Shown: in pieces, positions 24,001 through 27,000 of the stretch
Layout of the letters: every line of letters starts with the position of its first letter
Position numbering within the stretch: the stretch's first letter is position 1
Source: Candidatus Nanohaloarchaea archaeon
GTDB taxonomy: Archaea; Nanohalarchaeota; Nanosalinia; Nanosalinales; Nanosalinaceae
Reading direction: 5' to 3'
NCBI GenBank assembly: GCA_046497485.1
Contig: JAWOFP010000040.1
Span: forward strand, 1 to 38,462
Length of the DNA stretch: 38,462 nucleotides
Position numbers: made by a program

Positions 24001-27000
24001 GAAGTCCGGACCGACTTCAACTCAGAAGAAGGAACAGCCTTCAAAGAAGCCTTCGAGGAAGGATCAGTTACTGAGCCAGAAAGTATCGCTGAAGGAATTC
24101 TGTTTGCGGCAAAGCAGGAAAGCACCAACACCGTCGAAGAATTAGATCTATTTAGAAGAGATAAGTTAAGCGATATGGAATTAGGATAGAATGGTCCGCC
24201 CGCAACATCCAACCCTAATCAGGTTGGACGACACTACTTCTTCGACTTATGTTTAGTTATGAAAAAGAAAACTTATCTATCTAGGATTTCTATGTCTAGT
24301 TTACTGTTGTACTTGTATCTTCGTCCTCGCCATACAAAATCCTTTCTAAATAATCCATAGAGCGAAAGGAAGGGAAAAAGCAAGAGTGAGGCATATCCTA
24401 GCAAGAAACTTGGTCTTCTCCCGCCTAGAAAACCATATACTCCCAGAAAACCAGTTGTTGAAAGCAAGAAAGATTCAAAAGGATATACTAAGCATCCTAT
24501 TGAGATAAGAATAAATCCTATAGTTAGGAAAATTGTTTTGATTGGTTCATGATATCTTACATGTTTCATGAAACGGGTTATTCTCTCTAGAGAGTCTTTG
24601 AATGTTTGATCTATCTTCACTCTTCTTGTTCTTCTAACTGTCTCTCCATCAAGATGTTCTGAAAGAAGCACATCGTCAGCTATAGTAGATTTTAGTTCTT
24701 TCAGGAATTTTTCCTCGTTGAAAGTATCTCTATCGAACATGACTGCTCCTCCCCATGCTTGATCCTCAAACCATGTTACAAACATTACTAGGGCATAAAT
24801 TGGTTCGGTAACGACACCAAGCGGGTTCTGACCTATGAAGAAGGGAAGTTCTGAGACAGCACCGTATTTGTCACAATCTTCATGTAGTGCTTCAAGCCAA
24901 TTATCGGGATGATGGAAATCATCATCAGTCCATACAACTCTATTGTTCTCAGCTTCATTCATCCCTTCAAAAATAGCATTAGCTTTTCCAGAACAACCTT
25001 CAGGTTCTCCAGCTACAATCAACCTGATATTTTCATTGGAAGCGAATACATCTGATTTTGCAATTTCATCCCCTTCAGAATCACAAACTACTAGAAGTTC
25101 GTCCTGTTCTCTTATCTGACTAGAAAGTTCACTGACTACATCGCCTTTTGAGAGAGTCGGCAAGATTACGCTAGTAGCTGGATAAATATTTTCTGAAGAC
25201 ATAGTTTAATCTAAAACTTGTAGGAATTAAAAACAAACTCGGTTTTCCGACCACTACAACCCTATTTGACATGGTCCACCCGGGATTCGAACCCGGGACC
25301 GCCGCCTCTCTCGAGGTCAACAGACAGGCCTTTCCGGCGAATACTGTCTATTGGTCCTTATAAGGACGGTGCTCTAACCCCTGAGCTAGTGGACCCTTTA
25401 ATGTTGTAGAGGAGGCCTATTCTAAAAAAGGCTTACACGATAGGACAAATTATTTAATAGTTACTGGCAAGTAGCAATTATGAGTTTTTATTCTGATGAG
25501 GGGCAGTACGAAGACCTACCACTAGAGAAAGCTATAGAACGTGCGAGTATCGACGGATGGGTAGAAGAACTTCAATCAGATAGTCCTGAAATACCTGAGG
25601 ATTACAGTCAAACTACTGATCTTTCCCAGTAAGTATACTGAAGAACTTTAGGTCAGGTTAATAAATCTTCCAATACCTTTTTTTGTTGTAAAGTTCTAAA
25701 GGTGTCAATGAATGCAGATGACTAATCCACAGCAGCAACAGTATGACCGCGGAAAAACAATCTTCTCCCCTGATGGAAGGCTTTTCCAGGTAGAGTACGC
25801 AAAAGAAGCAGTTAAAAAAGGAGCAACAGCACTGGGAATAACTTTCGACGGCGGAACAGTCCTAGCCGCTACCAGAAGCACTCCAGAGCTACAGGTAAGA
25901 AACCCTGAAAAAGTATTCAAAATCGACGATCACATCGGTGTCGCAACTTCAGGCCTTGTAGCTGACGGAAGAACACTTGTAGAAGAAGCAAGGAACGAAG
26001 CTCAGAAACACTTAATGACTTATGACGAAGACATCCCTCCAAGCGTACTAGCAAAGTTCATCGCAGATAGATGCCAGCAGTTCACACAGTACGGAGGAGT
26101 AAGGCCTTACGGACTCTCCACAATCTCAGGAGGAATCAAGGACGGAAACGCAACCGTTTTCCATACAGATCCTTCAGGAACACTCTCTGAATGGAACGCA
26201 GTAACAATTGGTAAAGGCCGTGAAGAAGCCGAAGAACATCTAAACGAAAACTGGGATGAAGATCTTTCAGAGAAAGAAGCAATCGACCTAGCAGTTTCAG
26301 CACTGAAAGAAGGAGAAGAAGACATTGAATTAAACAATGTAGAGCTTTCAGTAGTAGACGAAGAAAACGGCTTCCAGAGATTTAGTCCAGAAGACCTTGA
26401 AGACAAAGGCGTAGAACTTTAAACTACATATCCACTTTTTCCACTTTACTTTTTCTCTCAAAGAATATCGATACAAGATAGAAATAGGCCTTAGAATCAA
26501 TTTACTTGCGAAATATCGATAAAATAATAAAGTCGAAATATCTTTATTACTGCTTAGAGCATTATGAATTAGATGGATGTGGATATGCCTTGATCAAAAA
26601 ACGCAGAGCGATTTTCATAATAGCGTTTATTGTAATTTTATCAGGCGGCCTAATAGCTATAATTGCTTCAGGCATATACACCCCGTTCTATCAGGGAGAT
26701 CCTTTTTTCTCAAAGGAATGGCCTGAGTTGAATACCTCTTATGATTCTGAAAATGAAGAACTTACCTTGGCAGTAGAAGAAGGAGCATTCACTCAGTTAA
26801 GGAGCACCCACATAAGATTCTATCAATCTAATGGAGAAAGTAACACTAATTTTACACTTAAGACAGATGGTAGAGAAAAGAAAACAAACTATTGGGCCAA
26901 AGATGGCCTTCTTACATTCAATTCTGAAGGCCTTACACGGTTCCCTATATTGCCGGGAGATTCTGTTACTCTAGAGTTAGGCGAAAGCCGTGAAGATATA

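What a model noticed while it worked through the whole genome (the two positions that open the first line are those of the whole stretch)
25272..25395. AUA is read by an intron-bearing tRNA-Ile(UAU); the agmatidine enzyme TiaS is absent (family-wide trait)
C32:25272-25395 (minus strand) is a tRNA-Ile gene with anticodon TAT split by a 51-nt intron after the anticodon loop. The genome has only two CAT tRNAs (C12:1218-1383, C60:3384-3458), no third one that could be tRNA-Ile2, and no TiaS, although AUA makes up a third of its Ile codons. The same intron-bearing tRNA-Ile(UAU) is kept in nearly all Nanosalinaceae and TiaS is missing from them, so this family decodes AUA without agmatidine - so far known in Archaea only for Nanoarchaeum equitans and Korarchaeum cryptofilum.
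Evidence so far: ARAGORN -i: tRNA-Ile(tat) i(38,51), Rfam tRNA 52.9 bits. TiaS_FLD PF08489: 0 match in G000, 1 of 49 other Nanosalinaceae; no TiaS row in pfam.tsv. Orthologous tRNA in 42 of 49 relatives at E<=1e-9; ARAGORN calls tRNA-Ile(tat) with a 40-117-nt intron in 27 of the 29 relatives' loci fetched. Codons in 1098 whole genes: ATA 5923 (21.5 per 1000), ATT 6951, ATC 5315.
(Added by a program. Inside this text positions count along the whole contig: contig position 1 is position 1 of the stretch shown here. "Call 12" and the like, gene names such as g00115 and contig names such as C1 are that model's own, and its searches are not shown. The text may have been shortened before it was handed on; [...] marks where a part breaks off. 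The agent that wrote the report below was given it as the finding of a first reader that could run no searches.)

Follow-up and report, generated by a model that had tools for sequence, protein, structure and literature searches.

The report
Intron-bearing tRNA-Ile(UAU) replaces agmatidine system
This is a real, spliced isoleucine tRNA gene with a UAU anticodon that reads the AUA codon in a salt-loving nano-archaeon whose whole phylum lacks the usual agmatidine enzyme; the strategy is already known from a few other tiny archaea.

Summary
Window 25272-25395 (-) is a tRNA gene (Rfam 52.9 bits) with anticodon UAU, discriminator A73 and a 51-nt intron at 37/38 in a BHB-like motif.

- **Function:** 42 distinct relatives' copies keep every stem paired through two-sided changes. 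The anticodon stem-loop is invariant.
- **TiaS:** TiaS_FLD matches 0 times in this genome and once in 70 genomes of the phylum. That one hit is a 189-aa acidic protein, not TiaS.
- **Spread:** The same intron-bearing gene occurs in four of the five families held, so the trait is wider than Nanosalinaceae.
- **Assembly-gap caveat:** A closed relative (973,463 bp) has 39 tRNA genes covering all 20 amino acids. Only initiator and elongator Met carry CAU.
- **Codon meaning:** ATA sites align with ATT/ATC (30.5%) and with ATG only 3.0%, as ATT and ATC sites do. AUA therefore means Ile.

The novelty claim is wrong. Fujishima et al. 2011 reported the same loss and replacement, with a 37/38 intron, in ARMAN archaea. 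I rate this a new clade for a known strategy.

How U34 avoids reading AUG remains open. TruA/Pus1 is absent from all 70 genomes. Elp3 is present in two families and absent from others that keep the identical anticodon arm.

The parts
25272..25395 (-). Whole pre-tRNA-Ile(UAU) gene: 124 nt, giving a 73-nt mature tRNA without an encoded CCA
   Evidence: ARAGORN -i; Rfam RF00005 at 52.9 bits; orthologues in 43 of 49 family relatives
25359..25395 (-). Exon 1, tRNA positions 1-37: acceptor 5' strand, D arm, anticodon stem 5' strand and loop C32-A37
   Evidence: Cloverleaf. The exon boundary is set by where conservation ends across 42 distinct relatives.
25360..25362 (-). Anticodon UAU (positions 34-36)
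   Evidence: The mature loop reads CUUAUAA in 42 of 42 distinct sequences
25308..25358 (-). 51-nt intron at the canonical 37/38 site. Its 3' end pairs with loop positions 32-35, and positions 2-5 are the conserved GGAC.
   Evidence: BHB-like pairing counts: C32:G(-3) 42/42, U33:(-4) 40/42, U34:(-5) 41/42, A35:(-6) 29/42 (not paired in this window, A opposite C), i2:(-8) 40/42, i3:(-9) 41/42. The fold with this structure ties with an alternative fold at -28.4 kcal/mol.
25272..25307 (-). Exon 2, positions 38-73: A38, anticodon stem 3' strand, variable loop, T arm, acceptor 3' strand and discriminator A73
25418..25429 (-). A/T-rich TATA-like stretch 23-34 nt upstream of tRNA position 1; a possible archaeal promoter element (inferred only)
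   Evidence: Read. It overlaps a consensus hit of the sigma-70-type scan, which is not designed for archaeal promoters. No ORF of 70 aa or more overlaps the tRNA. The gene lies between ORFs 24273-25202 (-) and 25712-26422 (+).

Best explanation
The locus is a functional gene for tRNA-Ile(UAU), sometimes called tRNA-Ile3. Its transcript carries a 51-nt intron at 37/38. The last intron nucleotides pair with anticodon-loop positions 32-35, leaving three-nucleotide bulges at both splice sites, which is a BHB-like motif. The archaeal splicing endonuclease cuts there. An EndA gene is present; the ligase was not checked. Splicing yields a 73-nt tRNA with loop CUUAUAA and discriminator A73. The long archaeal-type IleRS (present) charges it with isoleucine, and it reads AUA, a heavily used codon here (about 19-21 per 1000). 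The usual archaeal pair, tRNA-Ile2(CAU) plus the agmatidine synthetase TiaS, has been lost, most likely in an ancestor of the whole phylum. What is shown: the gene, its conservation and covariation, the absence of TiaS, the complete tRNA set without a third CAU gene in a closed relative, and AUA behaving as Ile. What is inferred: splicing, charging, and how U34 avoids AUG. On that last step my commitment is that discrimination does not depend on the eukaryotic Pus1 route or on Elp3. It rests either on an unmodified or otherwise modified U34 in a strictly fixed anticodon stem-loop, as in Mycoplasma mobile, or on pseudouridine made by another synthase on the intron-paired precursor. The elongator tRNA-Met competes for AUG in either case. 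The confidence given is for the gene's identity and role as the AUA reader; the U34 sub-mechanism is much less certain.
For: - **Gene and structure:**
- **Function under selection:** in 42 distinct pre-tRNAs from three families, every stem position forms a standard pair. Two-sided changes occur at acceptor pairs 2, 3, 6 and 7 and at T-stem pairs 49 and 50. The anticodon stem, the loop and A73 are invariant.
- **Splice motif:** pairing counts are. The partner of U34 is G in 21 copies and A in 20, and both can pair with U.
- **TiaS absent:** PF08489 gives 0 matches in G000, which is 97.35% complete, and 1 in 70 genomes of the phylum, eight of them closed. That hit is a 189-aa protein at 23 bits with no TiaS NCBIfam match. 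The model rings in 4 of 4 archaeal control genomes.
- **No third CAU gene:** the closed relative G026 has 39 tRNA genes for all 20 amino acids, including Ile(GAU) and Ile(UAU). A YTCATR loop occurs in only 2 of the 39, initiator and elongator Met. A T-arm scan finds no further tRNA-like gene.
- **AUA means Ile:** of 2529 ATA sites in 466 orthologue pairs, 30.5% face ATT or ATC, 23% face ATA and 3.0% face ATG. ATT sites face ATG 2.7% of the time and ATC sites 2.5%.
- **Machinery present in G000:** IleRS, 1034 aa, 867 bits; EndA.
- **Charging is plausible:** PMC11685878 (passages read) reports that archaeal/eukaryotic IleRS reads a carbonyl of N34 through a conserved arginine. It names G34, I34, pseudouridine-34 and agm2C34 as readable and says C34 lacks the acceptor. 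That U34's O4 carbonyl serves the same way is my inference.
- **Spread:** the gene is found in 43 of 49 relatives in f1, 1 of 1 in f2, 7 of 10 in f4 and 6 of 8 in f5.
Against: - No expression or splicing data exist; no RNA run holds the locus.
- The BHB is relaxed. One nucleotide (-7) lies opposite the 5' bulge, and in this window A35 faces C. An alternative hairpin, 29-32 with intron positions 2-5, has the same predicted energy.
- G000 itself lacks tRNA-Ile(GAU) and several other tRNAs. The inventory argument therefore rests on the relative G026.
- tRNA finders work poorly in this clade. The RF00005 search found only 30 tRNAs in G026 and ARAGORN miscalled four. A split gene, or one with an intron in the T arm, would escape my T-arm scan.
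- PF08489 covers one TiaS domain only; I had no full-length TiaS to search with.
- In haloarchaea, a tRNA-Ile mutated to U34 was a poorer IleRS substrate and bound AUG as well as AUA (PMC3895270). A U34 tRNA is therefore not trouble-free in a related cellular setting.
- The gene was not found in 6 of 49 family relatives, nor in G051, G056-G058, G064 and G066. All of these are incomplete assemblies.
Confidence: 0.9

Rival explanations
1. U34 is modified by Elp3 to an xm5U-type base such as cnm5U, as happened to U34-mutant tRNA-Ile in Haloferax. The tRNA then reads AUA well and AUG weakly, and the cell tolerates or out-competes the misreading.
For: Elp3 is present in G000 (TIGR01211 at 633 bits). 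It is also in 47 of 49 f1 relatives and 7 of 8 f5 genomes. An NcsA-like thiolase is present too. PMC3895270 shows that U34 tRNA-Ile expressed in H. volcanii acquires cnm5U and binds AUA > AUG > AUU.
Against: Elp3 is missing from f4 (a single 39-bit radical-SAM hit in 10 genomes) and from f2 and f3. Yet f4 and f2 keep the gene (7 of 10 and 1 of 1 genomes), and f4 keeps the identical anticodon stem-loop. Elp3 therefore cannot be the shared solution. In yeast the intron shields this tRNA's U34 from the Elp complex (PMC11408192), and here the intron pairs with U34 in the same way.
Confidence: 0.2
2. A eukaryote-like solution: U34, and perhaps U36, is converted to pseudouridine on the intron-containing precursor, where the anticodon is paired with the intron. 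This would explain why the intron is never lost.
For: The intron is present in every copy seen. That covers 42 of 42 distinct sequences plus the two-intron copy in G050 and every split match. Other tRNA genes, by contrast, gain and lose introns between G000 and G026: iMet, Cys, Lys(CUU) and Gly(GCC) differ. U34 and A35 pair with the intron, as Pus1 requires in yeast (PMC11408192). TruD/Pus7 and Cbf5 are present.
Against: The Pus1/TruA family is absent from all 70 genomes, so another enzyme would have to do it. No H/ACA-like or box C/D-like motif was seen by eye in the intron. Eight tRNA types keep introns in both G000 and G026, so retention is not unique to this gene.
Confidence: 0.2
3. A conventional tRNA-Ile2(CAU) and an unrecognised C34-modifying enzyme still exist, hidden in gaps, split genes or a divergent protein, and the UAU tRNA is only an auxiliary.
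For: G000 is fragmented into 66 contigs and lacks several tRNAs. tRNA finders miss or miscall many genes in this clade. Only one TiaS domain model was used.
Against: TiaS_FLD matches in 1 of 70 genomes, eight of them closed, and that one hit is spurious. The closed genome G026 has a complete decoding set with only two CAU genes. The PP-loop proteins of G000 score best as NcsA, a CysD-related PAPS-reductase-family protein (best hit below its cut-off), and an Asn-synthase/Dph6 fusion, not as TilS. The pattern scan over one genome per species found this anticodon arm 12 times, always with T34 and never with C34.
Confidence: 0.04
4. The locus is a tRNA-like pseudogene or a chance match.
For: None beyond the relaxed BHB and the lack of RNA data.
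Against: Rfam E 9.9e-9. Exons are near-invariant with compensatory stem changes across three families, while intron length runs from 45 to 117 nt. AUA is a frequent codon with no other reader.
Confidence: 0.01

Closest known systems
tRNA-Ile(UAU) of ARMAN-2, -4 and -5 (Micrarchaeota/Parvarchaeota; Fujishima et al. 2011, PMC3239211, passages read)
   Same: These are DPANN-type ultrasmall archaea. [quoted passage not shown] That is the same replacement as here.
   Different: They belong to a different phylum and are acidophiles. The intron is 25 nt in a strict hBHBh' motif and is cut by an epsilon2 endonuclease. Here the intron is 45-117 nt in the 42 parsed copies (about 27 nt in the two-intron G050 copy), the BHB is relaxed, and the only EndA hit in G000 is a single 186-aa protein.
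tRNA-Ile(UAU) of Nanoarchaeum equitans and Korarchaeum cryptofilum (PMC6000648, PMC8450103, PMC3895270, passages read)
   Same: These archaea lack tRNA-Ile2(CAU), and a UAU tRNA does the job instead. The Korarchaeum gene also has an intron (PMC6000648).
   Different: They are single species in surveys of 167 and 217 archaeal genomes. Here the trait is fixed across a phylum of at least four families. The Korarchaeum gene resembles its own tRNA-Ile(GAU). Here the UAU tRNA shares its D arm and T stem with elongator tRNA-Met rather than with tRNA-Ile(GAU) (sequences; judged by eye).
Eukaryotic cytoplasmic tRNA-Ile(UAU) with pseudouridine at 34 and 36 (PMC11408192, passages read)
   Same: It has a UAU anticodon and an obligatory 37/38 intron that pairs with the anticodon. 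An Elp3-type enzyme is present in the same cell.
   Different: The eukaryotic modification is made by Pus1, a TruA-family enzyme. That family is absent from all 70 genomes of this phylum.
Mycoplasma mobile tRNA-Ile2(UAU) (Taniguchi et al. 2013, PMC3575796, passages read)
   Same: The C34-modifying enzyme has been lost from a reduced genome, and a U34 tRNA reads AUA.
   Different: It is bacterial, has no intron, and its U34 was shown to be unmodified. Its IleRS is of the bacterial type.
Canonical archaeal system: tRNA-Ile2(CAU) with agmatidine made by TiaS
   Same: It does the same job, reading AUA as Ile without reading AUG.
   Different: Neither component is found here.

Membership tests
tRNA (Rfam RF00005) | Cloverleaf scoring above the family's gathering score of 29 bits | tested here: met
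   52.9 bits over model positions 1-71; cloverleaf drawn by ARAGORN
tRNA (Rfam RF00005) | Stems maintained by compensatory change among homologues | tested here: met
   All stem positions form a standard pair in 42 of 42 copies. Two-sided changes occur at acceptor pairs 2, 3, 6, 7 and T-stem pairs 49, 50.
Isoleucine tRNA reading AUA through a UAU anticodon (tRNA-Ile3) | Mature anticodon UAU in a 7-nt loop | tested here: met
   The loop is CUUAUAA in 42 of 42 copies after removal of the intron, whose limits are set by conservation and by the BHB-like motif
Isoleucine tRNA reading AUA through a UAU anticodon (tRNA-Ile3) | AUA codons specify Ile in the organism | tested here: met
   ATA sites face ATT or ATC 30.5% of the time and ATG 3.0%, the same profile as ATT and ATC sites
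Isoleucine tRNA reading AUA through a UAU anticodon (tRNA-Ile3) | Aminoacylation with isoleucine by IleRS | not testable with these tools
   IleRS is present and the discriminator is A73 in 42 of 42 copies. Charging itself is inferred.
Isoleucine tRNA reading AUA through a UAU anticodon (tRNA-Ile3) | No tRNA-Ile2(CAU) and no C34-modifying enzyme in the genome | tested here: met
   CAU loops occur in 2 of 41 tRNA regions in G000 and 2 of 39 in the closed G026. PF08489 matches in 0 of 1 and 1 of 70 genomes, the latter spurious. No TilS.
Archaeal protein-spliced tRNA intron (bulge-helix-bulge) | Two 3-nt bulges holding the splice sites, separated by a 4-bp helix | tested here: inconclusive
   The 3' bulge and a helix between positions 32-35 and intron positions -3 to -6 are kept, with pairing at 42, 40, 41 and 29 of 42. 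One extra nucleotide lies opposite the 5' bulge, and in this window the fourth pair is A opposite C. This is a relaxed form.
Archaeal protein-spliced tRNA intron (bulge-helix-bulge) | Splicing endonuclease encoded in the genome | tested here: met
   PF01974 at 97 bits in a 186-aa ORF at C60:1445-1723
Archaeal protein-spliced tRNA intron (bulge-helix-bulge) | Spliced RNA observed | not testable with these tools
   No RNA run holds the locus
TiaS (tRNA-Ile2 agmatidine synthetase), considered for the single hit at G027:C58 | A full-length enzyme, much longer than one domain, with kinase, FLD, OB and zinc-ribbon domains (size and domain list recalled, not from a call) | tested here: not met
   The ORF is 189 aa and acidic. 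Its only matches are FLD at 23 bits and a sub-threshold DUF3276 match, and it has no TiaS NCBIfam hit.

The most novel reading that the evidence does not exclude
A whole phylum of halophilic nano-archaea reads a very common AUA codon with a U34 tRNA, using neither the Pus1-type nor the Elp3-type route. The never-lost intron pairs with U34 and A35, and the anticodon stem-loop, including a U30-G40 wobble, is frozen. Together these would be parts of a still unknown way to tune U34: an intron-dependent modification by another enzyme, or an intron that shields U34 from modification. Since members of the phylum grow in co-culture, this would make the old question of how archaeal tRNA-Ile(UAU) avoids AUG directly testable.
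Probability: 0.25. Interest if true: 0.65.

Novelty: new member of a known kind. Interest (0 to 1): 0.4.

Why it matters
Reading AUA without reading AUG is a classic problem of the genetic code. Nearly all archaea solve it with agmatidine. The exceptions so far in print are N. equitans, K. cryptofilum and ARMAN, none of which has had its U34 chemistry determined in the papers I read.

This locus adds a whole phylum, Nanohaloarchaeota, with at least four families. In it AUA is about 30% of Ile codons, so the U34 tRNA carries a heavy load.

The setting is informative. In the hosts' relatives, the haloarchaea, an engineered U34 tRNA-Ile misreads AUG (PMC3895270).

The enzyme distribution found here narrows the possible mechanisms. 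No TruA/Pus1 is present anywhere in the phylum. Elp3 is present in some families and absent from others that keep the identical anticodon arm.

There is also a practical point. Standard tRNA finders miscall many intron-bearing genes in this clade, so automated claims of missing tRNAs there need care.

Tried and rejected
- **RF00005 inventory of a closed relative.** The RF00005 search through the genome search found only 30 genes over threshold in G026. I replaced it with ARAGORN plus a T-arm scan on the tiled genome and hand correction.
- **ARAGORN anticodon calls on intron-bearing genes.** These proved unreliable. Ile(aat) is really iMet with two introns, Ser(gga) i80 is Ile(GAU), Ser(gct) i80 is Cys, and Val(cac) is Leu(CAA). 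I dropped two long-intron calls, Arg tct i612 and Tyr ata i1339, as false because neither has a T arm.
- **Search for Ile(GAU) in G000.** BLAST with the G026 gene found only T-arm matches to Val genes. It is not in the assembly.
- **RNA evidence.** No RNA holder is listed for the locus.
- **Pattern scan of one genome per species.** My gap N{3,5} excluded the Nanosalinaceae D loop, which has a gap of 2. The scan therefore reports only the other families, 12 hits, all with T34. It cannot speak for unrelated anticodon arms in other phyla.
- **Pattern AGAGCNNNNNNCTTATA on G050, G051 and G056-G058.** Of three hits, one (G050) was a true tRNA. The two in G056 lie in coding-like sequence.
- **Guide-RNA reading of the intron.** I saw no box C/D or H/ACA motif by eye.
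- **Literature on the phylum.** I found no paper combining Nanohaloarchae* with agmatidine or with TiaS. The three papers combining it with tRNA, intron and anticodon do not treat this tRNA. DPANN plus TiaS gave one irrelevant paper.
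Full report
**What is at the locus**

ARAGORN in intron mode calls a tRNA-Ile gene with anticodon TAT on the minus strand of window 25272-25395, with a 51-nt intron after position 37. The default run without intron mode misses it. Rfam's tRNA model matches the same coordinates over its whole length at 52.9 bits, E 9.9e-9.

Read directly, the parts are:
- exon 1: 25395-25359
- intron: 25358-25308
- exon 2: 25307-25272
- anticodon: 25362-25360

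The mature RNA is 73 nt. It has a seven-pair acceptor stem, a four-pair D stem, a five-pair anticodon stem with a U30-G40 wobble, the loop CUUAUAA, a standard T arm and discriminator A73. CCA is not encoded.

The gene lies alone in about 500 bp between two ORFs, 24273-25202 on the minus strand and 25712-26422 on the plus strand. An A/T-rich stretch sits 23-34 nt upstream and could be an archaeal TATA element. That is inference only.

**Is it functional?**

A DNA search in the 49 other genomes of the family finds it in 43. That includes every high-quality genome: 23 of 23, counting this one. ARAGORN names 27 of the 29 fetched loci Ile(tat) with an intron. Of the 28 fetched loci that could be parsed (L007 is cut at its end), all, including the two ARAGORN miscalls, carry the same loop and an intron.

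Searching the 20 genomes of the other four families of the phylum gave the same gene in 7 of 10 genomes of f4 and 6 of 8 of f5. A pattern search found it in the single f2 genome, where a second intron interrupts the D arm. It was not found in the one f3 genome (61% complete), nor in G056-G058, G064 and G066.

In 42 distinct pre-tRNA sequences every stem position forms a standard pair in every sequence. Two-sided compensatory changes occur at acceptor pairs 2, 3, 6 and 7 and at T-stem pairs 49 and 50. The anticodon stem, the loop and A73 never vary. Intron length runs from 45 to 117 nt and most of its sequence is free to change. This is the pattern of a working tRNA, not of a relic.

**The intron**

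Exon limits follow from where conservation stops and from a conserved pairing scheme:

| Pair | Paired copies (of 42) |
|---|---|
| C32 with intron -3 | 42 |
| U33 with -4 | 40 |
| U34 with -5 | 41 (G in 21, A in 20) |
| A35 with -6 | 29 |
| intron 2 with -8 | 40 |
| intron 3 with -9 | 41 |

This leaves a three-nucleotide bulge at each splice site, separated by the four-pair helix. That is a bulge-helix-bulge motif of relaxed form. One nucleotide lies opposite the 5' bulge, and in this window A35 faces C.

An EndA catalytic domain is encoded in the genome. Intron positions 2-5 are GGAC in 40 of 42 copies and GGAT in the other two. They could instead pair with positions 29-32, and that alternative hairpin has the same predicted energy as the splice-competent fold, -28.4 kcal/mol for both. 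I cannot say what this conservation is for.

**The usual system is missing**

The TiaS_FLD model gives no match in this genome, which is 97.35% complete by marker genes. It matches once in the 50 genomes of the family and once in all 70 genomes of the phylum held, eight of which are single closed contigs. The same search rings above the cut-off in all four archaeal control genomes.

The single hit is a 189-residue acidic ORF on a 2-kb contig at 23 bits. It has no other TiaS domain and no TiaS match in NCBIfam. It is not TiaS.

The PP-loop proteins of this genome score best as follows, and none as TilS:
- NcsA
- a CysD-related PAPS-reductase-family protein, with its best hit below the cut-off
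- an asparagine-synthase/Dph6 fusion

Only one TiaS domain model was available to me, which is a limit of this test.

**The CAU inventory**

This genome has 41 ARAGORN tRNA calls, and a YTCATR loop occurs in two of them. C60:3384-3458 has an A1-U72 pair and three G-C pairs closing the anticodon stem; I recall these as the archaeal initiator features. C12:1218-1383 is an elongator with a 93-nt intron.

The assembly does lack tRNA-Ile(GAU), Lys(UUU) and others.

To settle it I tiled the closed relative G026, 973,463 bp. ARAGORN made 41 calls there. Two with introns of 612 and 1339 nt have no T arm, and I dropped them. Four were miscalled and were corrected by BLAST against this genome's tRNAs and by reading the sequences:
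- the initiator, which has two introns
- Leu(CAA)
- Cys
- Ile(GAU), which has an intron of about 80 nt

The resulting 39 genes cover all 20 amino acids, with a G34 and a U34 reader where needed. They include Ile(GAU) and Ile(UAU). Only the initiator and one elongator carry a CAU loop. The T-arm scan found no further candidate. A gene with a broken T arm, or a split gene, would escape this scan.

**AUA means isoleucine**

In 466 orthologue pairs between this genome and G026, I counted the G026 codons aligned to each codon type of this genome:

| Codon in this genome | Sites | Faces ATT/ATC | Faces ATA | Faces ATG |
|---|---|---|---|---|
| ATA | 2529 | 30.5% | 23% | 3.0% |
| ATT | 3546 | – | – | 2.7% |
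| ATC | 3014 | – | – | 2.5% |
| ATG | 3472 | – | – | 61.5% |

A long IleRS of 1034 residues is present. According to PMC11685878 (passages read), archaeal and eukaryotic IleRS read a carbonyl group of N34 through a conserved arginine, and C34 lacks that acceptor. That U34's O4 carbonyl serves the same way is my inference.

**How AUG might be avoided**

This step is not shown by anything here. The literature gives three models:
- **Yeast.** Pus1 makes pseudouridine 34 and 36 on the intron-paired precursor, and the intron keeps the Elp complex off U34 (PMC11408192).
- **Mycoplasma mobile.** U34 is unmodified (PMC3575796).
- **Haloferax.** An engineered U34 tRNA-Ile acquires cnm5U and binds AUA, AUG and AUU (PMC3895270).

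In this phylum:
- The TruA/Pus1 family is absent from all 70 genomes, so the yeast enzyme is not available.
- Elp3 is present in this genome (633 bits), in 47 of 49 family relatives and in 7 of 8 f5 genomes.
- Elp3 is missing from f4, which has one 39-bit radical-SAM hit in 10 genomes, and from f2 and f3.
- f4 and f2 nevertheless keep the gene (7 of 10 and 1 of 1 genomes), and f4 keeps the identical anticodon stem-loop, so Elp3 cannot be the shared solution.
- TruD/Pus7 and Cbf5 are present and could in principle act on the precursor.

The intron is present in every copy seen. Other tRNA genes differ in intron content between this genome and G026: iMet, Cys, Lys(CUU) and Gly(GCC). Eight tRNA types keep introns in both genomes, however, so retention alone proves little.

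I therefore commit only to a mechanism independent of Pus1 and of Elp3. It rests either on the fixed anticodon arm with an unmodified or otherwise modified U34, or on pseudouridine from another synthase.

**Comparison with what is known**

Two surveys do say that, for 167 and 217 genomes (PMC6000648; PMC8450103).

Fujishima et al. 2011 (PMC3239211), however, describe tRNA-Ile(UAU) with a 37/38 intron in three ARMAN lineages, together with loss of tRNA-Ile(CAU) and TiaS. They even spliced that precursor in vitro.

For Nanohaloarchaeota I found no statement in the open full text:
- Nanohaloarchae* with agmatidine, 0 papers
- Nanohaloarchae* with TiaS, 0 papers
- Nanohaloarchae* with tRNA, intron and anticodon, 3 unrelated papers

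The Suzuki and Numata review could not be read. Public tRNA databases may well list these genes.

A pattern scan over one genome for each of 185,579 species found this anticodon arm only in 12 records. Eight are titled as Nanohaloarchaeota-type lineages (Nanoanaerosalina, Nanohalalkaliarchaeum, Nanohalarchaeota, Asbonarchaeum) and four as uncultured archaeon. All 12 have T34. My gap setting left out the Nanosalinaceae themselves.

**Verdict**

The novelty claim is overstated. This is a new, phylum-wide member of a known kind of decoding system. It is of moderate interest, mainly because it offers cultivable material and a narrowed set of hypotheses for the unsolved U34 question.

Noticed in passing
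G000 C46:4299-4373 (+), outside the window: ARAGORN calls a tRNA-Arg with anticodon ACG, and Rfam scores it at 63.5 bits. It lies next to tRNA-Arg(TCT). tRNAs with A34 are rare in Archaea: 2 of 167 genomes for Arg-ACG in PMC6000648.
   Followed up: no
G000 C12:1218-1383 and C14:34355-34490; G026 266442-266629 and 546907-547055: The introns of elongator tRNA-Met and tRNA-Trp share paired motifs resembling box C and box C' (GATGAGG ... ATGATTAAA) in both genomes. They may be intron-borne box C/D guides for anticodon-loop methylation, as known for Haloferax tRNA-Trp.
   Followed up: no
G026 156669-156815 (-): The initiator tRNA of the closed relative has two introns flanking a micro-exon that holds the anticodon, and ARAGORN calls it Ile(aat). 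The initiator of G000 has no intron.
   Followed up: partly
G026 616694-616849, 569564-569716, 818125-818326: The introns of Ile(GAU), Cys and Ala(UGC) begin with a shared motif of about 17 nt, GACTGGTT(A/G)CGCTC(A/G)G. This suggests one intron family spreading between tRNA genes.
   Followed up: no
L158:1459-1582 (G050, family f2): The tRNA-Ile(UAU) of this family has a second intron of about 21 nt in the D arm, besides a 37/38 intron of about 27 nt. ARAGORN calls the gene Arg(tcg).
   Followed up: partly
G000 C60:1445-1723 (-): The only splicing-endonuclease hit is a single 186-aa ORF. The clade nevertheless has non-canonical and multiple introns, which by my recollection usually go with the broader-specificity enzyme types.
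   Followed up: no
Phylum-wide (70 genomes): TruA/Pus1 family pseudouridine synthase is absent from all 70 genomes. Elp3 is present in f1 and f5 but not in f4, f2 or f3.
   Followed up: partly
Window 490-573 and G000 C39 end (about 13120, minus strand): The end of contig C39 repeats the 3' part of the tRNA-Leu(TAG) gene found at window 490-573. The two contigs probably abut or overlap.
   Followed up: no
Window 25354-25357 (intron positions 2-5) with 25364-25367 (tRNA positions 29-32): Intron positions 2-5 are GGAC in 40 of 42 relatives and GGAT in 2. Together with positions 29-37 they form a palindrome. The resulting hairpin has the same predicted energy as the splice-competent fold. The purpose of this conservation is unexplained.
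   Followed up: partly
L031:62-631 (-) (G027:C58): A 189-aa acidic protein gives a marginal TiaS_FLD match at 23 bits, without the rest of TiaS.
   Followed up: yes
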